52,251 bases of DNA from a virus (lineage: Duplodnaviria > Caudoviricetes): positions 1 to 52,251 of IMG/VR virus record IMGVR_UViG_3300033148_006861; one strand, 5' to 3'. The position numbers were made by a program, and so were the translations under genes. The notes beneath the pieces were generated by a model. That model was not told the origin of the DNA. It saw only the letters and a program-made list of their open reading frames with translations, and made no database searches. Shown here piece by piece: positions 1 to 50,100 of this stretch. Numbering within the stretch: position 1 is the stretch's first letter; each line of letters starts with the position of its first letter.

Positions 1-105
1 AAGGGTTTGCTAAGGGTTTCCATAGGGTTTGCTAAGGGTTTGCTAAGGGTTTCCATAGGGTTTGCTAAGGGTTTGCTAAGGGTTTCCATAGGGTTTGTTA
101 AGGGT
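1..105. repeat. Tandem 33-bp repeats (11-bp subunits AGGGTTTGCTA / AGGGTTTCCAT), probable origin iterons
   Basis: Directly visible; encodes METLSKPLANP repeats inside the initiator gene. Confidence 0.85.
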
Positions 106-545
106 TCAAATGGGCTGCCATTGGCCTTTGGAATGGCTTCATCAATGCTTTTTTTATCATTTTGCTCTAATTCAAATTGGCCATTATTTTCAAAAATCTT
201 TTCAGCAATATCCAACAAACCATACTTTTTTAATATGGCTCTTATCGAAATAATTGCACGCTGATTTGAATTTATCCCTTGCGGATATTGGAATAACAAA
301 AATTTAGGCAGAAACCACTTTTCGCCATTATCTATTTCGACAATTTCAAAATCAGATGGTAAAAAATCTTTTGGATTCTCAATTTTCTCGCCGATATAAA
401 ATTCAGCAAGTTCCAGGTCATATTCCCAAATTCCAGCATGATTGCAATTATCGAAAAGATAAATAACAAAACATTTTTGCGCGGGAGTTAGCAGTCTAAA
501 CCAACGCTTTTTCCATATTTCAGTGTCAGTGAATCTCTTGGCCAT
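1..545 (-). CDS. Replication initiator / replisome organizer, N-terminal part (continues across the junction into 52251-51646)
   Basis: Hand translation MAKRFTDTEIWKKRWFRLLTPAQKCFVIYLFDNCNHAGIW... is open to base 1 and in frame with 51646..52248 when the ends are joined; typical phage initiator N-terminus. Confidence 0.85.
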   Translation of the reverse strand, partial: MAKRFTDTEIWKKRWFRLLTPAQKCFVIYLFDNCNHAGIWEYDLELAEFYIGEKIENPKDFLPSDFEIVEIDNGEKWFLPKFLLFQYPQGINSNQRAIISIRAILKKYGLLDIAEKIFENNGQFELEQNDKKSIDEAIPKANGSPFEPLTNPMETLSKPLANPMETLSKPLANPMETLSKP

Positions 546-2498: not shown

Positions 2499-3446
2499 TC
2501 ACTCCTTAATTGCTTTTAAATAAAACCGCCTGGTTCCTGGTCTTGCAGTTAAGTATTTCTCATACAAATCTGGATGTTCTGCCCTGAATTTTTCTCTATC
2601 GAATTGTTTAGTATCTTTAGATTGCTTAAAAGTTGCTAATAGCTGCCCTTGATATAGCAGACCCTCAGCATCTTGAATGATATTTTTTAAAGTGGTTTCA
2701 AGTTCTTCTTTTTCTTTTTCGAGCTGTTTGATCTGATTTCTAACAGAACAAGCCCTATCCCAAATATTAAAAGTTTCAGATGTTGCTTCTATTAATTTGC
2801 CATCTGTATGCCTTGGCCATCTTTTTACAACTTCTGCTGAGGTACTTGGGTCTGGTGGGATTCTTTTCTGGACATAGTCAAGCCAGAACTTGACTTCATA
2901 TTCCTCCATCATTTCGATAAATTCTTGATCGGGTTCTATGGGGATTGATTTCAATTGCCAGTCGTCAACGATAAGTACAGCTAAAGCCGCCCATGAATAA
3001 CCTGTAACATTTAAATAATGCTGAACCTGACAAAATTTATAAATTGGCGCTCCATCTTCCTGCCAGCTTTCAAATGCTCTGCGTGAGGTTGTGGTAACTT
3101 CAAGAACCCCTGTGCCTTTTCCATTTCCACTTAAAATTTGCCTGTCTAAATCAGCAATTAGAAAAGGATGCTTTTTGTGGATTCGGATTGTATTGTCACG
3201 CTGGATTTTAAATCCATAATCAGAAGCCCACCAGCGGGCAGTTAAATCTTCAAGCATTTTGCCGCGTAACATTGCGGCTGTTTCGGTCTGTTGCAGGGGT
3301 TTTAAACTAACTTTTTCATTATAGACATCAAGGGGAGTTTTGTAGGGGTTAAGCTTACAGACAGCAGCGGCATCTGTGCCGCCTAAGCCTTTTCTTCTTT
3401 CTTTGAGCCATTCGGCTTGGCTCATACCTCTTTTGTCAATTCTCAT
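2499..3446 (-). CDS. YqaJ-like viral recombinase exonuclease
   Basis: EWLKERRKGLGGTD, YKTPLDVY, RGKMLE, HPFLIADLD and QVQHYL motifs. Confidence 0.93.
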   Translation of the reverse strand: MRIDKRGMSQAEWLKERRKGLGGTDAAAVCKLNPYKTPLDVYNEKVSLKPLQQTETAAMLRGKMLEDLTARWWASDYGFKIQRDNTIRIHKKHPFLIADLDRQILSGNGKGTGVLEVTTTSRRAFESWQEDGAPIYKFCQVQHYLNVTGYSWAALAVLIVDDWQLKSIPIEPDQEFIEMMEEYEVKFWLDYVQKRIPPDPSTSAEVVKRWPRHTDGKLIEATSETFNIWDRACSVRNQIKQLEKEKEELETTLKNIIQDAEGLLYQGQLLATFKQSKDTKQFDREKFRAEHPDLYEKYLTARPGTRRFYLKAIKE

Positions 3447-3449
3447 TTG

Positions 3450-3608
3450 TCAAACCTCCAATACAAGTATTTTTTTCTGCTCAATTTGAAGCCTTTCCAT
3501 TGCTTGCCGATTTATGTTAATTCGAGATTTGTACAATTCATCTAAAAGCGATTTGATTTCGTTTATTTTTGTTTTATAGTCATTAATTAAATCAAGTGTA
3601 TTTTCCAT
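3450..3608 (-). CDS. Small coiled-coil hypothetical protein (52 aa, not in ORF track)
   Basis: Hand translation MENTLDLINDYKTKINEIKSLL...; abuts both neighbours. Confidence 0.55.
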   Translation of the reverse strand: MENTLDLINDYKTKINEIKSLLDELYKSRININRQAMERLQIEQKKILVLEV

Positions 3609-3805
3609 TATACCAACTCAGCAGGATTCTTTAAAACCGCCTGCCTGTGCAGACAGGCCTTGTAATTATTTTCTGATTTTTCCTCAAGTTCGTCTATTAT
3701 TTCATCAGCGCTTTTAGCCGTGCCGCAGACATCACACTCTAAGAAATCGCTGCCAATATCATAATGCTCTGTCCAATCTTCACAATGCCGGCAATATGAT
3801 AACAT
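3608..3805 (-). CDS. Small zinc-ribbon protein
   Basis: CxxC...CxxC; start/stop overlaps with neighbours. Confidence 0.6.
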   Translation of the reverse strand: MLSYCRHCEDWTEHYDIGSDFLECDVCGTAKSADEIIDELEEKSENNYKACLHRQAVLKNPAELV

Positions 3806-4032
3806 TAGAAACTTTCCTCCATTTCTTTTAAAAGCCTTTTCCCGCCTTTAATAACAAAGCCATAAGGCGGGTTGGCTTGGGAATGAATAAAATAGAGATG
3901 ACCTTTTTGAGAAATTTTAAACCATGTCGGTTTTCGTAACATAGGATTTAATATCAGCACCATGTCATTCCAATATCTTACTACCTGACAATCTTTTTTA
4001 TTTAATTCAGACCAAATAATTTTTTTAGACAT
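3805..4032 (-). CDS. Hypothetical phage protein
   Basis: ORF overlapping the next gene by one base. Confidence 0.55.
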   Translation of the reverse strand: MSKKIIWSELNKKDCQVVRYWNDMVLILNPMLRKPTWFKISQKGHLYFIHSQANPPYGFVIKGGKRLLKEMEESF

Positions 4033-4293
4033 GACGCAGTTCCCTTAAAACCCCTTTTAAATGCCAAAGAAATTTATAATCACGAAGAAAGCACAAGAAA
4101 TGTAGAATTATTCTGCCTTTTCGAGTCATGGCAAGTTTCAATTTTGTTTGCAAAGTCATACGAACTCACTCCAATTTTCAGGGAAAGCTATCTTCCATAA
4201 CTGTCTTATTAAAAAAACACAGTGCCTGTGGACTTTTCTTTTAAGCCAAAAATAAAAGCATCAAAAACATAGTCGAATCCATGACCGCAACTC

Positions 4294-4569
4294 CTATACA
4301 GTTTTACCTAATAAAGTTGTTATCAAATAGCGATGGGCATAATCCGGGTCTAATTCCTCAATCTTGGCCCGCCATATCCACCACTCCTCAAGATGAATAG
4401 GCGTCAAACCAGTCAGCTTCTTATTGAGTATATTTTCACTGATATGCACCCGCTCCGCAAACTCCGATTGCTTGCCAATAACCCCTCTCGATACCATCAT
4501 TTTGATAGCGTTGCTCAATAAATGTGCAATGGCCATATTCATTCGGTCACCTCGAATGTAAGTTTCCAT
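4294..4569 (-). CDS. Putative HTH regulator (CII/Cro-like)
   Basis: QSEFAERVHISENILNKKLTG HTH-like segment; GGAGG precedes METYIRG. Confidence 0.55.
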   Translation of the reverse strand: METYIRGDRMNMAIAHLLSNAIKMMVSRGVIGKQSEFAERVHISENILNKKLTGLTPIHLEEWWIWRAKIEELDPDYAHRYLITTLLGKTV

Positions 4570-4699
4570 ATCGTTGCCCTCCATTTGTTGCAGTACTTTT
4601 ATCAATTTTAGTTGCCCGATTACCAAAATTGATTTTTAATTTCCTTGCATTTCTTTAAATTATTTTGTATTTTTTTATACAAAAGTATAATACCCCCCA

Positions 4700-4803
4700 T
4701 AGCAAAGGCCTCTTTTAGACCCCCTTTAGGTCTCCAGAAGCCTTGCTTTGGTTTGGAGTCCCCAGAGCTGTGAGTCGCCAAACTCTAAATGGCAGCTCTG
4801 GGG
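4700..4803. ncRNA. Putative structured RNA (two hairpins; c4-like GTTTGGCGAC loop), copy of the late-leader motif
   Basis: 11-bp stem CCCCAGAGCTG/CAGCTCTGGGG; loop and flank shared with 29952-30013, 40988-41063 and 16995-17009; intergenic. Confidence 0.6.
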
Positions 4804-4856
4804 AATATTTTAAAAGAACAATAATCCATCTCCATTAGCTGGATATTATAATTCTC

Positions 4857-5072
4857 CTAAATTACGTATTCAATAAAATTGAGAAGTTCGTTTTTATGTA
4901 TTCTAACATCGCCATTAGCCAAACGTGTTAATTTGATTAGCCCTTTGGCTATTTGTTTATTGAGTGTACGTATATCGCTGTATCCTAAAAAGCGAATCGC
5001 TTCGGATTTCTTGACAAGCTCACGCTTTCCAAACATGTTAGTCCAGTAATCAAGTAAGTCATCGAAAGACAT
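4857..5072 (-). CDS. Excisionase-like winged-helix DNA-binding protein
   Basis: KKSEAIRFLGYS...GLIK...VRIHKNELLNFI pattern of HTH_17/Xis proteins. Confidence 0.7.
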   Translation of the reverse strand: MSFDDLLDYWTNMFGKRELVKKSEAIRFLGYSDIRTLNKQIAKGLIKLTRLANGDVRIHKNELLNFIEYVI

Positions 5073-5081
5073 AGCTAAAAT

Positions 5082-5291
5082 ATATCAGAAATAAAGATTA
5101 AATTATTTTGCAAGAATTGCGGCAGTAATCTTTTTAAAATTCCACCGAACCCCAAACCGAATGATAAAATCATTTGTAATGGTTGCGGTCTCAGTTCCAA
5201 TTATAAAGATGTTAAAGAATTCTCCGAAAGGAAAATTCGGGAATCTTTGGTTGAATCTCTCCGAGATGCAACAAAGAAGCTTAAAAAATAG
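5082..5291 (+). pseudogene. Zinc-ribbon protein with ATA in place of a normal start (pseudogene or non-canonical start)
   Basis: Hand translation (I/M)SEIKIKLFCKNCGSNLFKIPPNPKPNDKIICNGCG...; in-frame stop just upstream. Confidence 0.55.
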
Positions 5292-5460
5292 CTGTATGAA
5301 TTTTAATTGATAATTATGCCGACAAATAACAATTATTTTTGAAATCATTTTCATTAAAAAATATAAAGATGGACTAAATCAAATTCTCCACCTGCTGGTC
5401 GAGAACAATGCAATGAATGCAAGAGCAAATAATTAATCAAAATACCATGCAGGCCCGTTA

Positions 5461-5712
5461 TCATTTTAATTCTTTTAATTCCCATACTGATGGCAGATTT
5501 ATTTCTCTACATATATCGCAAAAACAATTATAACATAAAGTATTCCCAAATTTGATATGTTCTCTTACTTTCAACCAAATATCATCTGAAACAGAAAAAT
5601 CTCTAACATTAACACCACATATTTTACAAAAAGATGCTAAATGTAAATTACAGATCTTAACTAAGAATAATTTATACAGTACTCTAACAGTTCTTATCAT
5701 TTTTGTTCTCAA
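5461..5712 (-). CDS. Small Cys-rich (zinc-finger-like) protein
   Basis: CKICG...LCYNCF. Confidence 0.55.
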   Translation of the reverse strand: MRTKMIRTVRVLYKLFLVKICNLHLASFCKICGVNVRDFSVSDDIWLKVREHIKFGNTLCYNCFCDICREINLPSVWELKELK

Positions 5713-5737
5713 TGTAAAATTGAATATATTACATATA

Positions 5738-6100
5738 ATGGAAACACCAGAAAAATATTTAAATAAACCAGCTTTTCTTTCTATCTCTATACCGCTCGAT
5801 GAAGAAATGTTTTTTGATCCGTTTATGCCGTCAAATGCTATAAAAAATTTATCACCTGATACAAAAACATTCTTTTATCAATTTAAATGTTATATTGTTC
5901 TTGGCTTAAATTATGGATTATGGATTGAATCTTTTGCTCGTTTTCAAGACATAAATGAAGAAAAGTCAATTTATCTCTATATCCCTGAAAATTATATCCG
6001 TTCTGTTGCAATTTTTCCAGAAGGAAAAGAACATAATCTGAATCAATTTTTGCAGCAAATCGGATTCGACATCCAAGAGAAAAAAGGAAATCACCAATAA
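5738..6100 (+). CDS. Hypothetical protein antisense to the early operon
   Basis: Likely start METPEK; C-terminal IGF motif. Confidence 0.55.
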   Translation: METPEKYLNKPAFLSISIPLDEEMFFDPFMPSNAIKNLSPDTKTFFYQFKCYIVLGLNYGLWIESFARFQDINEEKSIYLYIPENYIRSVAIFPEGKEHNLNQFLQQIGFDIQEKKGNHQ

Positions 6101-6197
6101 TTTTTAAAATTCTATTTCTATGACGATTATTAATTCTATTGTTAAGGTGTAATCCTAATTGATAATATATTTCTAAAGGCAAAGCCATCCTTGACAT
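5883..6197 (-). CDS. Hypothetical protein overlapping the 3' end of the + strand gene
   Basis: AGGAG RBS before ATG; may be partly a shadow frame. Confidence 0.4.
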   Translation of the reverse strand: MSRMALPLEIYYQLGLHLNNRINNRHRNRILKIIGDFLFSLGCRIRFAAKIDSDYVLFLLEKLQQNGYNFQGYRDKLTFLHLCLENEQKIQSIIHNLSQEQYNI

Positions 6198-6294
6198 TGA
6201 AGACTCCTATTTTAACAAAATCTTTTAAGCAGCTTCGGCCTCGATTGAGGCCAGCTAAAATTGCTCTTTACCAGTATTCCCGAAAGGAATTTTT

Positions 6295-6660
6295 ATGAAA
6301 AGAAACATGGACTTGATCCGAGAAATACTCTTTAAAATAGAAGAATTACCATTAAAATCAGAATATAAACTTTTAGAAATCAAAAATTACAATCAAGATG
6401 AAATTATTTATCATTTATTGATTTTACATGAAGCAGGATTAATCGTTGCACATATAGCCAATTATGATCAAGAGACATTAATTTATCCTAAACGACTGAC
6501 ATGGTCCGGCCATGAATTTTTAGAATCTGCTAAAAATAATGGACCATGGAATGAAGCTAAAAACTTTTTAAAAGAAAAAGCCATCAGTGTACCTTTTGCT
6601 TTATTTGAAAAGTTAATAAATCATTTCCTCGGTGCTGATCTGCCTGGTTTTAGTGTTTAA
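6295..6660 (+). CDS. DUF2513-family protein
   Basis: MKRNMDLIREIL...YHLLIL.EAGLI...RLTWSGHEFLE signature. Confidence 0.88.
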   Translation: MKRNMDLIREILFKIEELPLKSEYKLLEIKNYNQDEIIYHLLILHEAGLIVAHIANYDQETLIYPKRLTWSGHEFLESAKNNGPWNEAKNFLKEKAISVPFALFEKLINHFLGADLPGFSV

Positions 6661-6948
6661 AAAAACTTTTAAGGGTTTTGGCTCATTTATTACTTGATTA
6701 AATATTCGTTCCTTTTCTTCTGCTGATAATTCTTTAGAAGTAATTTCGATACCTAATATTTCAGCGACTTCAAGAATATGGTTAGCATATGTAATAGCGA
6801 CAGATTCACAATATTTAATACCTAAAAGGTCCCATTCTTCAGCATTTTTAAGTTCATCACGTAATTGAAATAATTGCTGAGCCTTTTTTTTCCATGCTTT
6901 TAGCAACAACCTGAGTTCTTTATCAATATTCTTATGTTTCATCATCAA
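6613..6948 (-). CDS. Hypothetical protein
   Basis: GAGG RBS; convergent 3' overlap with DUF2513 gene. Confidence 0.55.
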   Translation of the reverse strand: MMMKHKNIDKELRLLLKAWKKKAQQLFQLRDELKNAEEWDLLGIKYCESVAITYANHILEVAEILGIEITSKELSAEEKERIFNQVINEPKPLKVFLNTKTRQISTEEMIY

Positions 6949-7039
6949 ATTACCTCTTTTAACAAAATTTAAGTTGCTTCTGCTTGAAGTTCTGTTTGCT
7001 TGGCATTTGTTTAATTCTTACAAGCTAAATGGTGATAAA

Positions 7040-7451: not shown

Positions 7452-7628
7452 TCACGCAGCCTGCGTTTGAAGTTCTGTTTGCTCGTTCTCTTTTTGAGAA
7501 AGAATTTCGTCAAGAAACAAATTTGCAGCTTCTTTTACTTTGAGGTTATTTATTGCTGCCTGAATTTTCAAACGCCTGTGAATTTCCAAATCTACCGCTA
7601 ACATTTTACGCTTATTATTATTGTCCAT
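7452..7628 (-). CDS. Ribbon-helix-helix protein in the Cro position (58 aa, not in ORF track)
   Basis: MDNNNKRKMLAVDLEIHRRLKIQAAINNLKVKEAANLFLDEIL: beta strand plus two helices; divergent from cI; AAGGA RBS. Confidence 0.75.
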   Translation of the reverse strand: MDNNNKRKMLAVDLEIHRRLKIQAAINNLKVKEAANLFLDEILSQKENEQTELQTQAA

Positions 7629-7673
7629 ATTAATATCCTTTTAACATTTTTGCATAATTATCATTACTGTACT

Positions 7674-7702
7674 AATATAATAAATAAAACATGATTTGTC
7701 AA
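7674..7702 (-). promoter_or_regulatory. Sigma70-type early lytic promoter
   Basis: TTGACA-N17-TATATT on the minus strand upstream of the RHH gene. Confidence 0.75.
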
Positions 7703-7750
7703 GTCTTTTTTGTACATTTTGCAAATTAATTTACATGTACGTTAATTTTT

Positions 7751-8479
7751 ATGAAATTAAATGCCAAACATTTTTCAGATCAATTAGATAAAATTTTAGA
7801 TGAAGATGGGTTGAGTCCAGAAAAACTGGCTTTACAATGTAATATTTCACATCCCACACTTTATCGGATTTTAAATAATAAAACTAAAGGTGTTCAAAGA
7901 AATATAGCCCGCAAGATCGCCGAGGGCACTGGCAGGAAGTTCAAGATCGAGGGTGACAAGATTTATTATTACAAACCGCCAAAATCGGAAAAAGACCTTG
8001 AATCATGGCGAGACATTGAACTGTATCAACCTATAACACCGCTTAGTGAGTTTGATCAGTATATCAAGGACTTAGGACTCCCGCCGCATCTGGCACAACC
8101 TTTGATGTACATCCCTTTGTTCAAATACCCGCCAAAATCTTTAGACAATTGGGATGCCACAGTTCAATCTTTACAAATAGGAGTGATTACTACGGTGTTT
8201 CAAGAGGGGAAAGATCGTCTTTTCGCACTACGAGTTAAAGACAATACAATGGCCGACCTAATAAAAAAAGATGCCATTGTAACCGCTGACCCACACAGCC
8301 CAATAGAAGATAATAAATTTGCAGTGGTTTCATTTCCAGATAATTCGTATATTATTAGAAAATATTATAAGCAGAACAATCAAATCTTGCTCATTTCGCA
8401 AACTAATCCCCCAGAATGTTTTTTTAAAAATCAATTTGAAACGATTTATCGTTTAATACAGGTTATTCAGCTTTTGTAA
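7751..8479 (+). CDS. cI: CI-like repressor (XRE HTH + S24 peptidase-like domain)
   Basis: N-terminal HTH (LSPEKLALQCNISHPTLYRIL); C-terminal FALRVKDNTM...YIIRKY S24-like domain. Confidence 0.85.
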   Translation: MKLNAKHFSDQLDKILDEDGLSPEKLALQCNISHPTLYRILNNKTKGVQRNIARKIAEGTGRKFKIEGDKIYYYKPPKSEKDLESWRDIELYQPITPLSEFDQYIKDLGLPPHLAQPLMYIPLFKYPPKSLDNWDATVQSLQIGVITTVFQEGKDRLFALRVKDNTMADLIKKDAIVTADPHSPIEDNKFAVVSFPDNSYIIRKYYKQNNQILLISQTNPPECFFKNQFETIYRLIQVIQLL

Positions 8480-10619: not shown

Positions 10620-11690
10620 ATGGCTCACATCCAAAAAATCAGACTCAAAAAAGGCACTGCTTATCGGATTTATTATTACAAAGACAGCATTCCCCGCCAA
10701 AAATATATCTCATATAAACAAAAGAAAAATCTAAAAGACATAAAAAAATTTGCTAATCAATTAGAGGCAAACGAACTTTCTGAACCATTCTCAAAAACAA
10801 TCACTCTTAAAGACTTCAAAAAAGTCTATTCCGAAAATCGAAAACATGAAAAAGATATAAGCAGAAATATTTATGCTCTAAATCTTCTAATATCCTTCCT
10901 TGATGAAGCTCTCAGATTAGACAAAATTAATCATGTTGCAATTCACCGCTTCCGTGATTATTTACTTGAGAAAAGATTAACGCAAGTTCCGCCTGCTCAA
11001 TTAACCTATCAGCGGGAGCAAAAGATTAGACGCGGGGTCAATAAAGAGCTTGCAAACCTCAGAACAATTTTTCGATGGGCAAAGAAAAAAGATTATATAT
11101 CTACCGATGTTTTTGAGAAGGTAGATTTTCTTGAAGCTGCTCAGCCCTTGCCAAATGTTTTATCAAGTGAACAAGAAAAATTATTTTACAAGGCATTGCC
11201 GAAATTTTCAACAAGCCGTTCAAGCAGGTACTCGGGCTATCGGCTGGCTTGGCTGATAATGAGGTTTACAGGATTGAGGCGAAAAGAATGTATGACTTTA
11301 AAGTGGGAGAATATAGATTTTAATGGCGAGTTAATTTTTCTTGAACGTACTAAAAATGGTGATGAAGTTTTTATACCATTGCATCCAAAGCTAAAGAGGA
11401 TATTGAAATTTTTAAATAGAGAAGGAAAATATAGCGGCAGGGTCATTCCTTATGGAAAAGACTATTTAACGAATGGATTTCGGCGTGCATTGAATCGGGC
11501 AGGATTAAGCCATTTAAAAAGCCCCGTACATATTCTCCGGCATACTTACATTACAAAAATAGTAAAGCAGTCGAAAAATATCTACCTGGCACAAAAGGCA
11601 GCCCGCCATAAGAATGTTCAAACAACAAAAATCTACGAGCATGTTGCTTTGGCGGAACTAAAAAAAGATTTGGAAAATGTCAATTTTTAA
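10620..11690 (+). CDS. int: Phage tyrosine integrase
   Basis: TGLRRKE, RTKNG, HILRH, ARHKNVQTTKIY catalytic R-K-H-R-H-Y set. Confidence 0.95.
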   Translation: MAHIQKIRLKKGTAYRIYYYKDSIPRQKYISYKQKKNLKDIKKFANQLEANELSEPFSKTITLKDFKKVYSENRKHEKDISRNIYALNLLISFLDEALRLDKINHVAIHRFRDYLLEKRLTQVPPAQLTYQREQKIRRGVNKELANLRTIFRWAKKKDYISTDVFEKVDFLEAAQPLPNVLSSEQEKLFYKALPKFSTSRSSRYSGYRLAWLIMRFTGLRRKECMTLKWENIDFNGELIFLERTKNGDEVFIPLHPKLKRILKFLNREGKYSGRVIPYGKDYLTNGFRRALNRAGLSHLKSPVHILRHTYITKIVKQSKNIYLAQKAARHKNVQTTKIYEHVALAELKKDLENVNF

Positions 11691-28168: not shown

Positions 28169-28477
28169 TTAGAACCACCACGGAACGCCATTGTGAAAAA
28201 CGAATGCTCTGAAAAGATTGTAAACGACTTGCCACAAAAATATCAAATAGGCCAAGAAAAATGCTTTATGGCGTTTTTTAAAAAACCATCCGAACCGTCC
28301 TAAAAAATAATTATAGCCGGCAATAAAAACAGATGGAATAAAAATAATCCATTTCAAAAAATGCCATGCAAATTTCAATTCTTGGCCACCTGCTGAAAAG
28401 TCAGCAGCGTCCATGACAGCATTTGCAATCATAGCAATTCCAAGAAACACAAATATTCTAATATCATAGGCTTTCAT
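28169..28477 (-). CDS. Small multi-pass membrane protein
   Basis: Three hydrophobic segments. Confidence 0.65.
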   Translation of the reverse strand: MKAYDIRIFVFLGIAMIANAVMDAADFSAGGQELKFAWHFLKWIIFIPSVFIAGYNYFLGRFGWFFKKRHKAFFLAYLIFLWQVVYNLFRAFVFHNGVPWWF

Positions 28478-29455: not shown

Positions 29456-29944
29456 CTATGCAGCCGTATCTACAATTGTTCCGAGTGCTTCCTCAGTGTC
29501 ATCGTAATTACACTGAAATTCAACAGGGATAACGGTCTCGCCATCTTTAAGATAAGGGGTTGGCCCGGTCATGGCTATCACGGCTGCGAAAAATGTGGCG
29601 GTTCGAGTACAATCATTTGGCCCTTTGCCAGTAAATACAATTTCCACCTCTCCCTTTTCTGACAGATCAATTTCAAGAGAACTGGAAACAAGTGCGCTAT
29701 CAGCCAAATTGAAAGCGTCTCTTAAATTTTCGAGCGTTGATTCGCCTAAAGTTGTTCTAACAGTGACATCCCTGCCAATTAATTTCCGCTTTACTGATGT
29801 AAGAGATTGATCCATTTCAACCTCATAGTATTCGGTTGAAACTTCCATTTCCACACCGCCCTTTGTATAGCCTACATCCCTGCCACCAATTGATAAAGTC
29901 ATGGAAGTGCCACTTATAGAGATATTGTTTTTGTCCACAGACAT
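29456..29944 (-). CDS. Major tail (tube) protein
   Basis: DVGYTKGGV, VEMDQ, TLGESTLENL; strong AAGGAGG RBS. Confidence 0.8.
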   Translation of the reverse strand: MSVDKNNISISGTSMTLSIGGRDVGYTKGGVEMEVSTEYYEVEMDQSLTSVKRKLIGRDVTVRTTLGESTLENLRDAFNLADSALVSSSLEIDLSEKGEVEIVFTGKGPNDCTRTATFFAAVIAMTGPTPYLKDGETVIPVEFQCNYDDTEEALGTIVDTAA

Positions 29945-29951
29945 TGGAATC

Positions 29952-30013
29952 CTCCTTGCTTTGATTTGGTATTAAATCTTAATTTGCGAGCCGCCAACTA
30001 TGGCAAATTAAGA
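29952..30013 (-). promoter_or_regulatory. Structured leader motif upstream of the tail-tube gene
   Basis: 11-bp stem TCTTAATTTGC/GCAAATTAAGA, loop CATAGTTGGCGGCTC, then ACCAAATCAAAGCAAGGAG. Confidence 0.7.
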
Positions 30014-36424: not shown

Positions 36425-39400
36425 TTATGAAATAGATAATTTGCCAAGTGTCAAGGGCTGCGTGATTTTCAAAGCCGCTCGATGGTGAACCATGATTGCT
36501 TTTGTCTTGGTATCCGGGACCCACTGGGGGCCAAGAATTACAAACGGAACATAGACATAATAGTGGATGCCTGTCGATCTTGTACCAACAGCCACCCTCG
36601 AACGTCTTGCATTGGGGCTTACAAAGACTTCGCAACCAGAAACATTGCCCACACTTCGGCTTGATAAATGCAACTCGTTGCGATTCACGTTATATTTCGT
36701 CCAGCCCTCTCCAAGCCATTCCATAAAACGAGAACGGTCTGCACGACTCCAAACCATCCAGTCGGGTTCAAAGTTTCCAGCCAATGCAGTTTCATCAACA
36801 ACCAAGTCGGAATAATATAAGAACTTCTTGTTCCATTCGGCTTGGGTATATCCTTCGTCCGGGGTCGATTGAACAAAAGTCTGATCACCACCTGTGGCGT
36901 CATCCACAATTTCATAAAGAATCTTCTTGTCAATAGTGTCAACGATAGACTTGATTATGGTCTGCACCAACAGGGTCAAATAATCTAATCCGCTGCCTTT
37001 GTCTCGCATAGCCAACTGCATATCTTCAATTGTGGAAATATCAACTCTGGCGCCGAGATCGTAATCTTGCGCAGTGGCTTGGCTCTTGACAATTCCTAAA
37101 TAAGATTTGTCCTCTGCGCTGCCAGCCGTTGCGCCGGTGATGGGCTTTTCGACAAAGAAACCAACCTGTCCCGCAGTTAGAGTAGATGAATCAGCGACAC
37201 TAACACCTGTCACGTCTGTACATTTCTGACCGACATTCGTAGGTGTACAGCGTTTAATAGTGCCAGCCGCATCGGTTGTATAAAAGGTCACCGTCCAAGT
37301 TGCGGTGTCTCCATTTTCATCTTTTCCGGTAATCGTGATTACCATATCAGTGCCGGCAGGGACTTCAATCAATCTCGCAAAAAGAGGCTGCGGATACTCA
37401 TTACTCGATGGGGATAATGCACCTTCATCAACAAAATCACCATAGGTGGTAGGATTTGCAGTTGTCGTTACCAGTGTTGCAGGATTCGCTTCATCTACCC
37501 ATCCAAATTCATGCTGTCCGCGCCTGAAAACATTATCGCCAGTCGGATAACCAATCTCAAAGATGTCTTTTGTCGTGGACAGCATATCCCCTGTAACAGC
37601 AATGTTCATCGCAATTGTTTGTGGCCATGCGCCGTAAATGATTGCAGCAGCTACCTCAGTGGGTAAATTTGAACCGATAACTGTGGAAGTCGTAGCTTCA
37701 TTAGCTTCCAGTAATGGCCTAAAGTTTTTCTGCACTTCCTCGGTGATTAAAGTTTCGTAAAGCTGACCACCCGGAGATAACAGGTCACCGCCAGTTCGGC
37801 CTGTAAACTGCATATATAATTTTTGCAGCTTCAGCAATGGCCTTAATCGCTCATCCCATTCCTCCAACAAGAATCGGCCATTATCATAGACAGGACGTTT
37901 GAAAATTCTGGAAAGAATGATATCGCGGACTTTGTGAGACCCGCCTGTTTCTTCTTGCAAAATCCCCTTAGCACGTTCTTCGGTTTTCAGGGTACTAATT
38001 ACGTTTGGATTGGTAACAAACTCTTTCTGGGCCTTCATTGACTCTTGAAGTGATTCAGCAATTTCTTTTTTGCGTGACTCAGCCTTTCCTTTAATGAACT
38101 CCTCAATTTTCAATTTGGCAACCTCATCGTTTTCGTTTTCGGCCATGATCACATCAACGGCCTCCTTACTCTCGCTGAGAATATTTGCCTTTACCAAATC
38201 GCCAAGTCCCTCAAGTTCATTTACCTTTTCAGTAACATGCTCAATCAGCATCTTCTTGCGAGCCTCATAGGCGGCCTGCTTTTGGGCTTCCTCGAGCTTT
38301 TTCTTTTCTTCCTCTAAAGCTTTTTGTTCAGCCTCCAATTTAGCCTTTTGTGCCTTTAGCTCCTCTAATTCCTTCTTTTCTTTTTCTTCCATTATATTAT
38401 CCTCCTTCTTTTCCTCAAGATGAAAACCCTTTTCCTCATCGGAAAACGGCATTGAGCCAACATCTGTGAAATCTGCCCCTAATAATGTGAGTCTGCGGAC
38501 GTCATCGCCGCCCATGTTGTTAGCTTCATAATATCCATTTTTGGGAAATGCCCGCAGGCTTACACCGTCAACCATTTCCTCTAACAGCAAGACAGCCATG
38601 TCTTGCCCTGCGCTTGTTTTTAAAGTCTCAAAATGTATGTAGCCAATACCATCACTGGACGATACTCCTGTTATTTTCCCAGCCCGCTGTCTGAAATAAT
38701 CTGGATGCTTTGGATCAAGCGCCGGTCTATGTGTTGGAAACATATCAAGGACTTTCCTTGATGACTTCGACTCTTTGAGCCGTTTTAAATCTTCTTCTAA
38801 CCAAGTCCAACATTCATCTAAATAACGATTGCCATTTTCTGTAAAAGTATTGAACTTGATCATCGGCACTTTTGCCTTTACAACAAGTCCATTGTCCTTG
38901 TCTTGATTTTCTTCCAGCAAGATTTTGCCAGATAAACTAAAAACATGGCCTGACTCAACTTTATCTGAAGTTTCGATTTTTTCCTCAATTAGAAATTTTT
39001 CAGGATCGAGTTGCTTTTGTTCTTCGGTTTTCTTTTTAACAACCTGCTTAATTTCGACTTGTTCAAGAGGACCAAATTCAAAACCAGTATCGGTCTCCTT
39101 AAATGATGCCCTGAAATAGATGGAATTCATTTCCTCCTCATTCCATTTATTCAAAATCACATATTCTTTTACAATGTCTATCACATCGTATTCTTTTCCA
39201 AAATGCGCTTTGACTGCTTGATTTACTTTGTTTCGATATTCATCCAGTCCCCCTTCAATCTCCTCTTTTTTTTGCTTTTTCTTTTTGACTACTTGCTTAG
39301 TATCGGGGTCATACATATATTCATCACCAAGCTTAGAGGCCAATCTTTTCCCCATCTTAGCCCACTCCTCATCGGTATAGCCTCCCTTTGTTTTATTCTC

Positions 39401-40981
39401 AGTATGATTAAAATACGCTAATGCAGCTTTAAGGTGTGTTTTATCGGCGGGATAACGGAAATTAGTATTATGTGCGATAAAACCATTAGCAACAAAATTA
39501 TGCGAACCCTCAACCATTATATCATAAACAGGTTCAGGCGACAATTGTTTGATATCTCGAACTCTTGAAACTGTAAAAATTTGTTCGTTTTCAAGAAATA
39601 TGTCGCGTCCACCAAATACTTTACCCTGAGGCCGATAATTTGAATAAAGTACAATTTGATAAGCAAACGATTCCGTCCCAAAATTCTTTGTTGGTTTGCG
39701 CTCATAAATGTTGCTGCTCCACCATCCAGCATATTTGGCAAGAACCTTAACATCCTCCAATAATTGCTTATTGCATGAAACAATATAATGTTGCCCATTT
39801 TGAGGTGTATGCCCATCGGCATCTATATAGCCTTTTAAAAATTCGGATATTGCATCTTCTGATAATTGGAAAATCCATTTAGGTATTCTTCTATTATGTT
39901 GATTGCCAGCGCAACAAAGTTTTACTAATTTCCGTGCAATGTCAACAGAATGAAGCCTAACTTCATAGCATTTGTTAGGCGGCTGATGGTGAGGATAGAT
40001 TTTAATTCTTTCAGCATAATCAGGATAGGCTTCACCAAGAATTGCTTTATATTTTTCAGCTTCCTCTTTACCAGAGCAAGCAAGTCTTAAACTATGTGCC
40101 CCATATTTGTTATACTCTAAATACCCATCGCCATAATAAAAACCCAAAGATCTCATCTCTGCTAAAGAATGGCCGTTATTATTTTCGTTAGGTAATTTTT
40201 TAACAATAAGAAGAAGATCGCCCTTACAGATATGATCAAGTCGCGTCCATTCTAATCTGCGCCCCAAAGGTTTATCTCGCTTTAGAGTTAATATCGGATG
40301 TTCAGCAGTGCCCTTGATTTTATCATGGCCCGTCGAAATTTCATAAATCGGGAAAACGCCAACTTCTTTCCATCCAAGTACTTTTCTCTTTTTTAATTGG
40401 CCGACGAATCTCTGTTTTTCGTATTTTCTTTTGCCACCCCACCTTTCTTCCCCAATAGATAGAAAAGGTTGGAATCCGCCTTCAAAAGAATAAACGAAAT
40501 TATCTTCCTTAATTTCAGCAATAGGCACAGGTCCTTCTGGATTGGTATAAATTAAAGTATCGCCTGTTACACAGGCATCTAAGAAATCATCTTCAGCAAC
40601 ATCTTTGTACTGCGAAGGCTTTGTAACATGCCCGCCCTCTTTTATGCCTATGCCATATTTCTTAGCTCTTGCCTCCTGAGCTTCTTTTGCTTTTTCTCTT
40701 TCGCTCTTTTCTTCTATCAACTCGTTATCTTCGTTTTCGCTCAGCGGTTCTAAGTGATTTTGATAGTCATCCATAACTATTTCCTCTTGTTTTTTGATGA
40801 CCCATTTATTCCCTACTTTTTTGTATTTTGCTTTAACTGCTCCCCAGCCTGCCATGCGTGCCTTTTCATCGTTTTTGCTTTTTGCATATTCTGCATTAAA
40901 AGCCTTGATAAAAAGCTTTTGCGCGCCTGCCGGCAGGTTCTTTAAATAAGTCGGGATATTGTTCGGGTATTGGTAAGGCAG
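36425..40981 (-). CDS. Head polyprotein: ChaB + DUF6582-like (intein-interrupted) + prohead protease + scaffold + major capsid protein; probable CTG start
   Basis: ORF extends 42 codons beyond the track start to CTG after AAGGAG, giving (M)PYQYPNNIPTYLKNLPAGAQKLFIKAFN..AGWGAVK (ChaB); NGNRY, THRP, GVSLRA, GADF protease motifs; coiled coil; capsid C-terminus (YYVYVPF); no other capsid gene. Confidence 0.85.
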   Translation of the reverse strand: MPYQYPNNIPTYLKNLPAGAQKLFIKAFNAEYAKSKNDEKARMAGWGAVKAKYKKVGNKWVIKKQEEIVMDDYQNHLEPLSENEDNELIEEKSEREKAKEAQEARAKKYGIGIKEGGHVTKPSQYKDVAEDDFLDACVTGDTLIYTNPEGPVPIAEIKEDNFVYSFEGGFQPFLSIGEERWGGKRKYEKQRFVGQLKKRKVLGWKEVGVFPIYEISTGHDKIKGTAEHPILTLKRDKPLGRRLEWTRLDHICKGDLLLIVKKLPNENNNGHSLAEMRSLGFYYGDGYLEYNKYGAHSLRLACSGKEEAEKYKAILGEAYPDYAERIKIYPHHQPPNKCYEVRLHSVDIARKLVKLCCAGNQHNRRIPKWIFQLSEDAISEFLKGYIDADGHTPQNGQHYIVSCNKQLLEDVKVLAKYAGWWSSNIYERKPTKNFGTESFAYQIVLYSNYRPQGKVFGGRDIFLENEQIFTVSRVRDIKQLSPEPVYDIMVEGSHNFVANGFIAHNTNFRYPADKTHLKAALAYFNHTENKTKGGYTDEEWAKMGKRLASKLGDEYMYDPDTKQVVKKKKQKKEEIEGGLDEYRNKVNQAVKAHFGKEYDVIDIVKEYVILNKWNEEEMNSIYFRASFKETDTGFEFGPLEQVEIKQVVKKKTEEQKQLDPEKFLIEEKIETSDKVESGHVFSLSGKILLEENQDKDNGLVVKAKVPMIKFNTFTENGNRYLDECWTWLEEDLKRLKESKSSRKVLDMFPTHRPALDPKHPDYFRQRAGKITGVSSSDGIGYIHFETLKTSAGQDMAVLLLEEMVDGVSLRAFPKNGYYEANNMGGDDVRRLTLLGADFTDVGSMPFSDEEKGFHLEEKKEDNIMEEKEKKELEELKAQKAKLEAEQKALEEEKKKLEEAQKQAAYEARKKMLIEHVTEKVNELEGLGDLVKANILSESKEAVDVIMAENENDEVAKLKIEEFIKGKAESRKKEIAESLQESMKAQKEFVTNPNVISTLKTEERAKGILQEETGGSHKVRDIILSRIFKRPVYDNGRFLLEEWDERLRPLLKLQKLYMQFTGRTGGDLLSPGGQLYETLITEEVQKNFRPLLEANEATTSTVIGSNLPTEVAAAIIYGAWPQTIAMNIAVTGDMLSTTKDIFEIGYPTGDNVFRRGQHEFGWVDEANPATLVTTTANPTTYGDFVDEGALSPSSNEYPQPLFARLIEVPAGTDMVITITGKDENGDTATWTVTFYTTDAAGTIKRCTPTNVGQKCTDVTGVSVADSSTLTAGQVGFFVEKPITGATAGSAEDKSYLGIVKSQATAQDYDLGARVDISTIEDMQLAMRDKGSGLDYLTLLVQTIIKSIVDTIDKKILYEIVDDATGGDQTFVQSTPDEGYTQAEWNKKFLYYSDLVVDETALAGNFEPDWMVWSRADRSRFMEWLGEGWTKYNVNRNELHLSSRSVGNVSGCEVFVSPNARRSRVAVGTRSTGIHYYVYVPFVILGPQWVPDTKTKAIMVHHRAALKITQPLTLGKLSIS
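39467..40573 (-). mobile_element. Intein (369 aa) with LAGLIDADG homing endonuclease
   Basis: N-terminus CVTGDTLI, block B TAEHPIL, LGFYYGDG and LKGYIDADG, C-terminus VYDIMVEGSHNFVANGFIAHN|T. Confidence 0.95.
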
Positions 40982-40987
40982 TTTAAA

Positions 40988-41063
40988 CTCCTTGCTTTGA
41001 TTTGGTACATTTCAGTTTGCGAGCCGCCCTGTCTGCCACAGGCAGACAAACATGGCAAACTGA
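40988..41063 (-). promoter_or_regulatory. Structured leader motif upstream of the capsid polyprotein
   Basis: Stem TCAGTTTGC/GCAAACTGA; loop CATGTTT[palindromic insert]GGCGGCTC; ACCAAATCAAAGCAAGGAG. Confidence 0.7.
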
Positions 41064-41073
41064 GATTATAAAC

Positions 41074-41125
41074 AAAAAAAGCCGCAACATTCTAATCGCT
41101 TCAAACGACCAGAACGCCGCGGCTT
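41074..41125 (-). terminator. Terminator-like hairpin upstream of the capsid leader
   Basis: AAGCCGC...GCGGCTT stem followed by T7 on the minus strand. Confidence 0.6.
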
Positions 41126-41200
41126 CGGTTTTTCCGATCACCTTAGCTATTCAGGCGAAACAAAAATAATCTCAAAATTTCTTAATAAAATATAAAAAAA

Positions 41201-41470
41201 TTAAAAATTCTTGTCAACATCTTTTTTTAAATTTGCATTTCGTTTAATAATTAATTTTGATAATTCAAGCCATGTACCATACGGTAAATTTCTGCGAAGC
41301 CATTTGAATAATAATAAAGCCTCTGATTTAAAAATATTTTCAGTAAAAAAATCCATAGGTCTCTTTTCTATCTGAACTGAACCGTCTGCCTCGCGGCTGT
41401 CATAAGTCTTATGCAATAAAATATCATTGCTAAATTTTTCATCTTCAAGATTATTCATTATAGTCACCAA
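41201..41470 (-). CDS. Hypothetical protein
   Basis: ORF in the late operon. Confidence 0.5.
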   Translation of the reverse strand: MVTIMNNLEDEKFSNDILLHKTYDSREADGSVQIEKRPMDFFTENIFKSEALLLFKWLRRNLPYGTWLELSKLIIKRNANLKKDVDKNF

Positions 41471-47467: not shown

Positions 47468-47771
47468 TTATACAAGCGGGCTATCAATATGTTAGCGGGC
47501 TGGTTGTAATCTTGCATTACCACCACCGCAATATTCACAATGCCAAACTAATCGCCAATCATTTTTACCAAAATTTTTTGGATATAGCTCTGGAACACAA
47601 TCAATACAAGCGTTTTCTTCAAACCAGTCAAAAGTAACTTTTACGATACCAGAATGTTTTCCAGATATATTTACAATTGAACCATTTGAAGTTTTATATT
47701 CTCCGTTTTGTAAATTTTCGCTGCTCATAATGACTCCTTATCTTATACAAGCGGGCTATCAATATGTTAGC
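47468..47771. repeat. Perfect 29-bp direct repeats (47468-47496, 47743-47771) flanking one ORF
   Basis: TTATACAAGCGGGCTATCAATATGTTAGC occurs twice. Confidence 0.9.
47492..47728 (-). CDS. Small Cys-containing hypothetical protein
   Basis: AAGGAG RBS; CxxC...CxxC; stop codon lies inside the repeat. Confidence 0.7.
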   Translation of the reverse strand: MSSENLQNGEYKTSNGSIVNISGKHSGIVKVTFDWFEENACIDCVPELYPKNFGKNDWRLVWHCEYCGGGNARLQPAR

Positions 47772-49845: not shown

Positions 49846-50100
49846 AATTCCATAAACTCCGCAAATGTGAGAACCCGCCCAGTTCCTATTTTTTGTTGTT
49901 TGTAACACTTTTCCTTTTTCAGTTTCAGAATCTCAATTAATTATGTCCAGTCTATTTGATTATCACAGAAAATAATGACATAATTGTATTGTTCTGAAAA
50001 CTGCGGCACAATAGGAAACACCGGCTCTTGATTATCTTCAAACCTTCCCCGCGCTTCTTCAATGAATTTTTGTAGAGCTTCTTTTTCAATGACATAGCTT
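49827..50100 (-). pseudogene. Remnant of the upstream partner gene (C-terminal fragment with internal stop)
   Basis: EPVFPIVPQFSEQYNYVIIFCDNQIDWT*LIEILKL...IGTGRVL; TAA at 49941-49943; no start codon. Confidence 0.6.

What the first reader, a model, noticed from the sequence alone, without database searches (positions are those of the whole stretch)
4645..4803. Candidate trans-acting antisense RNA aimed at capsid and tail-tube translation
Seen: this intergenic early-region element matches the two late leaders. Read on the + strand (the cI/lysogeny direction), CCUUGCUUUGGUUUGG (4741-4756) pairs over 16 nt with CCAAAUCAAAGCAAGG, which overlaps the Shine-Dalgarno of both the capsid and tail-tube genes. 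UGUGAGUCGCC pairs with the leader segment GGCGGCUCGCA. All three substitutions between this copy and the leaders in these segments give G-U wobbles in this orientation. A weak + strand promoter TTGCAT-N17-TATTTT lies at 4645-4673. Established: P1 c4 and P4 CI RNAs repress targets through two short pairing elements. Inference: a small RNA silences the two most abundant virion genes, or times their expression. Three wobble-compatible transitions could arise by chance about one time in eight.
Basis: partly seen in the sequence, partly recalled or inferred. Interest (0 to 1): 0.85.

Follow-up and report, generated by a model that had tools for sequence, protein, structure and literature searches.

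The report
Repeated leader RNA hairpin in phage
A temperate phage carries three same-direction copies of a folded RNA leader, two directly in front of its capsid and tail-tube genes and one in its early region; it is most likely a shared control site on the messages themselves, and the proposed antisense RNA is possible but not shown.

Summary
The window is a complete 52-kb temperate phage genome. It holds exactly three copies of one element: 4803->4741, 30013->29954 (tail-tube leader) and 41065->40990 (capsid leader). All three lie on the - strand, the strand of the genes around them.

Each copy is a 9-11 bp stem whose sequence differs between copies but stays paired (7 positions with compensatory double changes). 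The stem encloses conserved GCCAU and GGCGRCUCRCA. A single-stranded CCAAAYCAAAGCAAGG follows and, in the late copies, runs into the Shine-Dalgarno sequence. No Rfam family matches. The only other record found with it is a near-identical fragment.

The + strand complementarity is an automatic result of direct repeats. A 10/12 promoter sits upstream on the - strand. The second early hairpin is 11 kcal/mol better on the - strand. Two of the three "wobble" substitutions also improve sense-strand helices. No RNA data exist.

Best reading (0.5): a sense-strand leader operator shared by three one-gene units. The antisense sRNA stays open (0.2).

The parts
4760..4803 (-). Early copy, hairpin 1. P1 stem is CCCCAGAGCUG/CAGCUCUGGGG (11 bp). 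It encloses GCCAU, an inner helix GAGUU/GACUC and the 11-mer GGCGACUCACA (4779->4769).
4741..4756 (-). Early copy of the 16-mer, CCAAACCAAAGCAAGG. No start codon follows it. It forms the 5' arm of hairpin 2.
4692..4759 (-). Hairpin 2, found only at the early copy. The 16-mer pairs with GAGGCCUUUGCUAUGGGGGGU. It folds at -34 to -35 kcal/mol with 3 G.U pairs on the - strand, and about -24 kcal/mol with no G.U pair on the + strand. Its - strand tail is AUUAUACUUUUGUAU (T=1.63).
4845..4873 (-). Sigma-70-like promoter TTGAAT-17-TATAAT (10/12) about 40 nt upstream of the early copy on the - strand. A second, weaker site is TGGAGA-16-TAAAAT at 4834->4807 (9/12).
4645..4691 (+). Candidate + strand promoters for the proposed antisense RNA. 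A perfect TATAAT lies at 4686-4691 but has no good -35 hexamer.
   Evidence: direct reading; not listed
4294..4560 (-). 88-aa ORF downstream of the early copy. It is an orphan with a helix-turn-helix look by eye. The best solved-structure match is a phage Cro/antirepressor at E=0.56. It has 12 distant relatives at 31-46% identity.
4218..4230 (-). Terminator-like hairpin with a U7 tail (T=4.85) just after the 88-aa ORF.
29954..30013 (-). Tail-tube leader copy. P1 is UCUUAAUUUGC/GCAAAUUAAGA. It contains GCCAU, an inner helix AGUU/GGCU and the 11-mer GGCGGCUCGCA. The 16-mer runs into AAGGAGG, followed by ATG at 29944. The stop codon of the upstream ORF lies inside the 5' arm.
29456..29944 (-). 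162-aa major-tail/Ig-domain protein gene. A terminator-like hairpin follows at 29467->29446 (T=3.59).
40990..41065 (-). Capsid leader copy. P1 is UCAGUUUGC/GCAAACUGA. It contains GCCAU, an extra nested hairpin UGUCUGCC/GGCAGACA and the 11-mer GGCGGCUCGCA. The 16-mer runs into AAGGAG.
36425..40981 (-). 1518-aa fusion of ChaB, an intein with LAGLIDADG domain, a scaffold-like region and the major capsid protein. It starts at CTG 40981. A 10-bp hairpin follows the stop at 36410->36380.
41079..41217 (-). Late promoter TTGACA-17-TATATT (11/12, 41217->41189), followed by a strong terminator (41125->41079, 20 pairs, T=4.73) directly upstream of the capsid copy.

Best explanation
The three copies are one structured RNA element that works in the sense (- strand) orientation, as part of three messages.

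Each copy has, in order: an A/U-rich hexamer; a covarying stem P1; a junction that presents GCCAU and GGCGRCUCRCA (partly held in a short inner helix); and then an unpaired 16-mer, CCAAAYCAAAGCAAGG.

In the capsid and tail-tube messages the 16-mer is free and ends in the ribosome-binding site. I infer that the hairpin plus 16-mer is an operator read by one trans-acting factor. That factor is most likely an RNA-binding protein of the phage or the host. It would set the stability and translation of the two most abundant virion proteins together.

The early copy puts a small helix-turn-helix gene under the same factor. There the 16-mer is locked as the 5' arm of a -34 kcal/mol hairpin. Binding would therefore switch that leader between a closed and an open form.

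Shown: three direct copies, the covarying stem, the conserved unpaired blocks, and the position in front of three single genes that are each followed by a hairpin.

Inferred: that the RNA is the active form in the sense strand at the early copy, that a common factor binds, and what binding does.
For: - All three copies share the strand of the flanking genes.
- The stem covaries in one register. Seven positions have double changes and 31/33 cells are paired. The unpaired blocks are identical in the two late copies (32/32) and 29/32 in the early copy. This pattern fits a folded element whose exposed bases are read.
- In relatives of this phage (capsid protein 64-78% identical), a 13-bp hairpin sits in the same place before the capsid Shine-Dalgarno sequence. 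It is kept through G.U <-> A-U <-> G-C changes, which pair only on the message strand.
- The early copy has a 10/12 - strand promoter 40 nt upstream.
- Hairpin 2 is 11 kcal/mol more stable on the - strand, with 3 G.U pairs against 0.
- The inner helix AGUU/GGCU of the tube copy forms only on the - strand. The early copy's G->A turns its U.G pair into U-A. The early U->C turns a U.G into C-G in hairpin 2.
- Each copy heads one gene that is followed at once by a hairpin.
- A -10-like hexamer ends 1-6 nt before P1 in all three copies. Chance is 0.052 per site, or 1.4e-4 for three; this was a post hoc test.
- No other partner complementary to the blocks exists in the genome.
Against: - No transcript data of any kind.
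- No factor has been identified.
- The early copy has no start codon next to its 16-mer, so a purely translational role does not fit it.
- All three early/late substitutions are also wobble-compatible with + strand pairing.
- Only the early copy has a G+C-rich stem (8 of 11 pairs) followed on the + strand by AAUAUUUU, and it is preceded on that strand by a perfect TATAAT at 4686-4691. That layout looks like an sRNA gene.
- The stems of hairpin 1 fold equally well on both strands.
- Comparative support is missing. Only a 99.4% identical fragment carries the element, and 9 of 9 relatives found through the tube protein lack it before that gene.
Confidence: 0.5

Rival explanations
1. The early copy is transcribed on the + strand into a small RNA of about 110 nt (4698 to about 4812), or about 260 nt if it runs to the + strand terminator at 4938-4951. 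Its loop (UGUGAGUCGCC) and its single-stranded stretch (CCUUGCUUUGGUUUGG) pair with the loop and the Shine-Dalgarno-proximal 16-mer of the capsid and tube leaders and block their translation. It would also be fully antisense to the early message at that site.
For: - Pairing is feasible, and the two leaders are the best two of 132 start regions.
- The 16-mer is unpaired in both late leaders.
- All three substitutions give G.U in this orientation.
- Only the early copy has a G+C-rich stem followed by AAUAUUUU on the + strand.
- A perfect TATAAT lies at 4686-4691.
- + strand terminator-like hairpins lie inside the - strand ORF downstream (4938-4951, T=3.86).
- There is a precedent for a prophage antisense RNA against a virion-gene message: STnc6030 of BTP1 (PMC7067206, passages read).
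Against: - The complementarity is automatic for a direct repeat.
The TATAAT has no -35 hexamer.
- The tail score is 0.93, against 3.6-4.9 for clear terminators.
- Half of the proposed seed is buried in the RNA's own 5' hairpin, so the net gain is modest. The third-ranked, unrelated start region reaches -10.6, against -11.8 and -12.4.
- Hairpin 2 carries its G.U pairs on the other strand.
- Two of the three substitutions are explained by sense-strand helices.
- No Rfam antisense family matches.
Confidence: 0.2
2. The blocks are DNA sites rather than RNA. A DNA-binding protein, such as the repressor or the small helix-turn-helix protein, would bind GGCGGCTCGCA and CCAAATCAAAGCAAGG inside transcribed leaders. 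It would block elongation into the capsid, tube and early-left genes. This resembles the orientation-specific stoperators of cluster A mycobacteriophages (named in PMC3203893).
For: - Asymmetric conserved blocks, all in one orientation relative to transcription and downstream of promoters.
- The authors of the ESAS inverted repeats of cluster K phages favoured DNA binding for them (PMC3203893).
- The early copy precedes a helix-turn-helix-like gene, which would allow autoregulation.
Against: - A DNA site gives no reason for a stem to keep pairing through double changes at 7 positions.
- It gives no reason for a nested hairpin to be tolerated inside the capsid copy.
- It gives no reason for the 16-mer to end exactly in the Shine-Dalgarno sequence in two copies.
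- The spacing between the two blocks varies from 12 to 15 nt.
Confidence: 0.1
3. The early copy is a separate - strand small RNA. It would start near 4800-4838 and end after hairpin 2. It would mimic the late leaders and titrate whatever binds them, acting as a decoy that times late translation.
For: - - strand promoters lie at 4873->4845 (10/12) and 4834->4807 (9/12).
- Two very stable hairpins form (-60.2 kcal/mol, z=-6.8).
- The tail after hairpin 2 is AUUAUACUUUUGU (T=1.63).
- No coding function is adjacent.
Against: - In this copy the 16-mer is paired, not displayed.
- The tail is weak.
- No binding factor is known.
- Without RNA ends, this cannot be told apart from a long 5' leader of the 88-aa gene.
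Confidence: 0.08
4. The copies are leftovers of duplications of the capsid leader and have no shared function. Only a generic 5' hairpin in front of the capsid gene matters.
For: - Relatives have a hairpin only before the capsid gene, in a single copy.
- The element is confined to one phage lineage.
Against: The stems have turned over almost completely (7 of 9 variable positions), while 29-32 of 32 unpaired bases are kept. Neutral decay would not produce this.
Confidence: 0.05

Closest known systems
Start-associated sequences (SAS) with extended SAS inverted repeats of cluster K mycobacteriophages (PMC3203893; passages read)
   Same: - A short asymmetric conserved sequence that contains the AGGAG core and lies a few nt before start codons.
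- Nearly always in one orientation.
- Occasional copies are not next to a start.
- An inverted repeat lies just upstream in about half the cases.
- Lineage-specific, with unknown function. The authors left open binding by a protein or an RNA.
   Different: - SAS occur in 11-19 copies, in the non-structural half of the genome. Here there are 3 copies, two of them at the capsid and tail-tube genes.
- The ESAS repeats have a conserved sequence, and their departures do not support RNA pairing. Here the stem sequence is free and pairing is kept.
- The sequences share no similarity.
P1/P7 c4 and P4 CI immunity RNAs (mechanism recalled; c4 is mentioned in PMC12197685, passages read)
   Same: If the + strand is transcribed, two short complementary elements, one presented in a loop, would meet a target that covers a ribosome-binding site.
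   Different: - As I recall, c4 and CI are cut from the same transcript as their targets by RNase P. Regulator and target are therefore inverted repeats on one strand, and the target is an antirepressor or early operon.
- Here the copies are direct repeats. Opposite-strand transcription is needed, and the targets would be virion genes.
- No Rfam family was matched.
STnc6030 antisense RNA of Salmonella prophage BTP1 (PMC7067206; passages read)
   Same: A prophage RNA complementary to a virion-gene message (tailspike 5' end). It is expressed in lysogens and excludes superinfecting kin. It shows that RNA silencing of late structural genes exists.
   Different: - STnc6030 is cis-encoded and more than 500 nt long. 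It lies opposite its own target and has experimental support.
- Here the candidate would be trans-encoded from a diverged copy 25-36 kb away. It would aim at two leaders, and it has no expression data.
Lambda nut (boxA + boxB) and HK022 put antitermination sites (recalled, no call)
   Same: - Several copies per genome, in the direction of transcription.
- Located in leaders downstream of promoters and upstream of terminators.
- Built of a hairpin with a conserved loop plus a conserved single-stranded box.
   Different: - The order and size of the parts differ.
- No N-like arginine-rich protein was seen.
- The capsid copy lies after, not before, the strong late terminator.
- Overlap with the Shine-Dalgarno sequence is not a feature of nut or put.
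T7 gene 10 leader: 5' stem-loop plus translational enhancer plus strong Shine-Dalgarno sequence (recalled, no call)
   Same: A hairpin near the 5' end of the capsid message, followed by an unstructured A-rich stretch and a strong ribosome-binding site.
   Different: - The T7 leader is single-copy and starts at a phage-polymerase promoter.
- It does not explain 27/27 identity of the unpaired bases between two genes.
- It does not explain a third copy without a start codon.

Membership tests
Rfam antisense/sRNA families of phages (C4, sar and all other 4227 Rfam 15 models) | A covariance-model match at the family's gathering score | tested here: not met
   There were 0 matches at gathering score in the whole window. 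At E<=10 around each copy only chance-level hits appeared: best 22 bits against a cut-off of 80 at the early copy, and sar at E=3.5 on the late terminator rather than on the element.
c4-type immunity RNA | Regulator and target lie on one transcript as inverted complementary elements, released by processing | tested here: not met
   The copies are direct repeats on the - strand. No inverted copy exists, even when G.U pairs are allowed.
c4-type immunity RNA | Two short pairing elements meeting a target that covers the ribosome-binding site | tested here: inconclusive
   Blocks of 16 nt and 11 nt are complementary if the + strand is read, and the 16-mer overlaps AAGG of the Shine-Dalgarno sequence. 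This follows from the repeat itself.
Independent trans-acting sRNA gene (+ strand) | Own promoter | tested here: inconclusive
   TTGCAT-17-TATTTT scores 7/12 and was not listed. TATAAT at 4686-4691 has no -35 hexamer. Promoter-like sites in the region are at the shuffle level (11 found against 11.6 expected).
Independent trans-acting sRNA gene (+ strand) | Intrinsic terminator: stable hairpin followed by a U-tract | tested here: inconclusive
   The hairpin folds at -25.3 kcal/mol, but the tail AAUAUUUUAAAAGAA scores T=0.93, against 3.6-4.9 for the clear terminators of this phage.
Independent trans-acting sRNA gene (+ strand) | A transcript of that strand exists | not testable with these tools
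   No RNA run holds the phage. Only contigs of DNA runs were laid, and none lay on 4665-5741.
SAS/ESAS-like start-associated leader repeats | An asymmetric conserved sequence containing the Shine-Dalgarno core, a few nt before the start codon, in one orientation | tested here: met
   Met at 2 of 3 copies (tube ATG, capsid CTG). All 3 copies share one orientation. The early copy has no start.
SAS/ESAS-like start-associated leader repeats | Many copies (11-19) in front of non-structural genes; the upstream repeat has a conserved sequence without RNA-type compensation | tested here: not met
   There are 3 copies, two at virion genes, and the stem covaries. The family features are taken from PMC3203893.
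nut/put-like antitermination site | Lies in a leader downstream of a promoter and upstream of a terminator | tested here: inconclusive
   Hairpins follow each downstream gene. However, the strongest terminator (41125->41079) lies upstream of the capsid copy.
nut/put-like antitermination site | A cognate N-like protein, or factor-free action on RNA polymerase | not tested
   No search for an arginine-rich N-like protein was made. Action on the polymerase cannot be tested in silico.

The most novel reading that the evidence does not exclude
The early copy is a gene for a + strand RNA made in the lysogeny direction. Its loop and tail pair with the loop and the Shine-Dalgarno-proximal 16-mer of both the capsid and tail-tube leaders. 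One diverged copy of a leader would thus silence the two main virion proteins in lysogens and in superinfecting kin. During lytic growth the abundant early sense transcript, which is fully complementary, would mop the RNA up and release late translation. The result would be an RNA timer built from three direct repeats.
Probability: 0.2. Interest if true: 0.75.

Novelty: new variant of a known kind. Interest (0 to 1): 0.45.

Why it matters
How temperate phages tune the very high output of capsid and tail-tube proteins after transcription is poorly known outside a few model phages. Here one folded leader with strictly kept exposed bases is shared by exactly those two genes and by an early regulatory gene. 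The stem covaries cleanly, which makes it a small and testable RNA operator.

If a common binding factor is found, it links early and late expression at the RNA level. If instead the + strand is transcribed, it would be a trans-encoded antisense RNA aimed at virion-gene translation. The nearest precedent I found is the cis-encoded STnc6030.

The element is so far confined to one uncultivated phage from vent-type metagenomes, and this limits its reach.

Tried and rejected
Known RNA families. cmscan of the whole window at gathering score gave nothing. Permissive scans around each copy gave only chance-level hits. One of these was a 17-bit match of the + strand to Spy779816 (E=3.9), which shares 12 loop letters. 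I treat it as chance.

Relatives carrying the element:
- The 16-mer hit 31 IMG/VR stretches. 30 are chance and 1 (L019) is a 99.4% identical fragment of the same phage.
- Among the 227 pattern matches in loci L035-L260 (L019 lies outside that range), none has the full 16-mer.
- The nearest, L224, has 5 of 6 extra letters. It is a G+C-rich inverted end repeat of a small contig with no GCCAU or stem, and I set it aside.

Relatives found through proteins:
- The single tube protein gave none. An alignment of 16 tube proteins gave 9 loci, and 0 of 9 have the element before the gene.
- The large terminase subunit gave the same fragment plus one 5-kb contig.
- The 88-aa protein gave only itself in the word-indexed search, 12 distant kin by HMMER and no locus in IMG/VR.
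- blastn and tblastn against cultured phages gave nothing near.

Expression. No RNA holder was listed. Contigs of four DNA runs were laid on 3000-7000. X1 gave short pieces on 3142-4527, 5742-5776 and 6609-6785, and X2 gave two poor-fit pieces at 4625-4664. Nothing was laid on 4665-5741, so no variants of the element were seen.

Other ideas rejected:
- Plain duplexfold of long RNAs gave unrealistic full-length duplexes. I replaced it with cofold.
- A second partner RNA elsewhere in the genome: none, even with G.U allowed.
- A second copy of the relatives' own capsid leader in their records: none.
- Ribozyme, riboswitch (preQ1-like tail) and RNase III site were considered from the anatomy. I dropped them for lack of any model match or a long enough helix.
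- The 26-codon ORF in hairpin 2 was considered as a type I toxin. I dropped it because its hydrophobic stretch is only 7 residues.
- The -10-like hexamers as three real promoters were rejected. The capsid copy has no -35 hexamer, and its stem would be lost from the transcript.

They could refine the comparison with SAS.
Full report
**What the window is.** It is a complete virus record of 52,251 bp with direct terminal repeats and 37% G+C. The gene content is that of a temperate siphovirus.
- On the + strand: a LexA/CI-like repressor (7751-8479) and an integrase (10620-11690).
- On the - strand: nearly everything else.
  - RecE- and RecT-like genes at 2499-3446 and 1300-2457.
  - The large terminase subunit, portal and a head-morphogenesis protein.
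  - A 1518-aa fusion that ends in the major capsid protein.
  - A 162-aa major-tail/Ig protein in the usual place before the tape measure.

**The observation.** The 16-mer occurs three times, always on the - strand: at 4756->4741 (one change), 29969->29954 and 41005->40990. With the 11-mer at 12-15 nt distance, the pattern is found 3 times on the - strand. It is found 0 times on the + strand and 0 times in the reversed control. The copies are direct repeats in the orientation of the genes around them. Any + strand RNA from one copy is therefore complementary to - strand RNA of the others by construction.

**Anatomy.** I anchored the copies on GCCAU and on the 11-mer. The flanking arms then pair in the same register in all three. 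At register 0-10, 31 of 33 cells are standard pairs. Positions 2, 3, 4, 5, 6, 7 and 9 change on both sides between copies, for example C-G / U-A / U-A and A-U / U-A / C-G.

The stretch between GCCAU and the 11-mer is 9, 4 or 23 nt. In the capsid copy it holds an extra 8-bp hairpin. A short inner helix uses 11-mer positions 4-8: AGUU/GGCU in the tube copy and GAGUU/GACUC in the early copy.

The unpaired blocks (5 + 11 + 16 nt) are identical in the two late copies and 29/32 in the early one. A -10-like hexamer ends 1-6 nt before the stem in each copy. Chance is 0.052 per site (a post hoc test).

In the late copies the 16-mer is predicted unpaired and ends in AAGGAG. An ATG follows for the tube gene. 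For the capsid gene a CTG follows, which aligns with the ATG of the Met-Pro-Tyr start in relatives.

This is a real, structured element. It is not in Rfam.

**The early copy.** It lies in a 230-nt gap between a 71-aa ORF (4857-5072) and an 88-aa ORF (4294-4560). Both are on the - strand and neither has a family match. The helix-turn-helix look of both is my reading by eye. The only outside hint is a Cro/antirepressor structure at E=0.56.

The 16-mer here has no start codon. It pairs with a downstream GAGGCCUUUGCUAUGGGGGGU in a second hairpin. That hairpin folds at -35.3 kcal/mol with 26 pairs and 3 G.U on the - strand. On the + strand it folds at -24.4 kcal/mol with 23 pairs and no G.U.

A TTGAAT-17-TATAAT promoter (10/12) lies at 4873->4845 on the - strand. 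A short hairpin with a U7 tail follows the 88-aa ORF.

**Context of the late copies.** An 11/12 promoter (41217->41189) is followed by a strong terminator (41125->41079). The capsid copy comes next. Relatives keep the same order of promoter, terminator, hairpin and Shine-Dalgarno sequence before their capsid gene. Their 13-bp hairpin varies only by G.U/A-U/G-C exchanges that pair on the message strand. It is single-copy in their records. Their tube gene has a plain short spacer.

In this lineage, then, a capsid-type leader has been copied to the tube gene and to the early region. Each of the three downstream genes is followed at once by a hairpin. The copies therefore head three one-gene units.

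**Testing the antisense model.** Pairing is feasible.
- Cofolding a 4698-4812 + strand RNA with the tube and capsid leaders gains -15.3 and -13.9 kcal/mol net. Shuffled RNAs gain -8.2+-3.1 and -5.6+-2.7.
- Among 132 start regions the two leaders rank first and second. The margin over the third is about 1 kcal/mol, because half of the seed is buried in the RNA's own hairpin.

The gene-like features are weak. The promoter scores 7/12. The perfect TATAAT at 4686-4691 has no -35 hexamer. The tail scores 0.93, against 3.6-4.9 for the clear terminators.

Some features do fit. The early stem alone is G+C-rich. Only the early copy has AAUAUUUU after the stem on the + strand. + strand terminator-like hairpins lie downstream inside a - strand ORF.

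**The wobble argument.** All three changes are G->A or U->C (late -> early on the - strand). They do give G.U if the + strand of the early copy meets the late messages. The same kind of change also interconverts G.U and Watson-Crick pairs within the sense strand.
- The G->A at 11-mer position 5 makes U-A where the tube copy has U.G in the inner helix.
- The U->C makes C-G in hairpin 2.
- Only the third change (11-mer position 9, C.A at the inner end of P1) has no sense-strand reason.

The pattern therefore does not separate the models.

**Verdict.** I favour, at 0.5, a sense-strand leader operator. This is a bulged hairpin plus a single-stranded 16-mer, read by one trans-acting factor. It couples the capsid, tail-tube and small early-gene messages. 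In the early leader the 16-mer doubles as one arm of a switchable hairpin.

The rivals are:
- DNA-level sites, 0.1;
- a - strand decoy RNA, 0.08;
- functionless duplicates, 0.05.

**Comparison with known systems.** The closest analogue in architecture is the SAS/ESAS system of cluster K mycobacteriophages (PMC3203893, passages read). The present element differs in three ways: it has 3 copies, it sits at virion genes, and its stem covaries.

For the antisense reading, the nearest precedents are c4 of P1 and STnc6030 of BTP1. The c4 mechanism is recalled; c4 is mentioned in PMC12197685. STnc6030 is from PMC7067206. The promoter-terminator pair before the capsid gene recalls lambda PR'-tR'. For that I saw only the abstract start of PMC7547250 in the listing.

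**Limits.**
- There is no expression data and no informative variants.
- The only other carrier found is a near-identical fragment.

Noticed in passing
window 40979-40981 (- strand): The capsid fusion gene appears to start at CTG. The frame is closed by TGA 10 codons upstream, with no ATG/GTG/TTG in between. AAGGAG lies 7 nt before the CTG. The CTG aligns with the ATG of the Met-Pro-Tyr start of relatives. A rare start codon for the most abundant virion protein.
   Followed up: partly
window 36425-40981 (- strand): The capsid gene encodes a 1518-aa fusion. Pfam finds ChaB (residues 12-61), an intein splicing domain (201-505) and a LAGLIDADG domain (378-435). A scaffold-like region and the major capsid protein follow (64-78% identical to relatives). 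In the tblastn the ChaB piece found no match in relatives, and the intein stretch itself was not among the pieces searched.
   Followed up: partly
window 41072-41217 (- strand); L263 2120-2335 and kin: An 11/12 promoter is followed about 110 nt later by a strong terminator, directly before the capsid leader. The arrangement is kept in relatives. It resembles lambda PR'-tR'. It implies late control by antitermination and a short terminated RNA that could itself be a small RNA.
   Followed up: partly
window 1-172 and 52094-52243: Arrays of 11-bp tandem repeats lie at both genome ends, inside the terminal repeat (family D1).
   Followed up: no
window 47468-47496 and 47743-47771: An exact 29-bp direct repeat lies 275 bp apart, upstream of the small terminase gene (D20). 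The near-identical fragment L261 breaks its alignment to the window just here.
   Followed up: no
window 7617-7750: The probable genetic switch. An 11/12 - strand promoter (7702->7674) faces away from the CI-like gene (7751-8479, +). It leads into a 58-aa ORF with a weak Omega/ribbon-helix-helix match.
   Followed up: no
window 28464-29453 (- strand): A group-1 glycosyltransferase gene sits directly after the major tail gene, inside the tail module. A second sugar-transferase-like gene is at 49090-49908.
   Followed up: no
window 4741-4756 and both late copies: The 16-mer reads as three tandem pentamers, CAAAU/CAAAG/CAAGG, after a leading C. This could be a repeated protein-binding unit (direct reading).
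   Followed up: no
window 4620-4700 (- strand): A 26-codon ORF (MGGIILLYKK...) has its GAGG and AUG buried in the 3' arm of hairpin 2. It is probably non-coding, but it would allow leader-peptide control.
   Followed up: no
L224 103-141 and 3119-3157: A small contig of a Patescibacteria MAG carries, as inverted end repeats, a G+C-rich stretch with GGCGGCTCGC and 15 of the 16 letters of the 16-mer. I judged it a chance match.
   Followed up: partly
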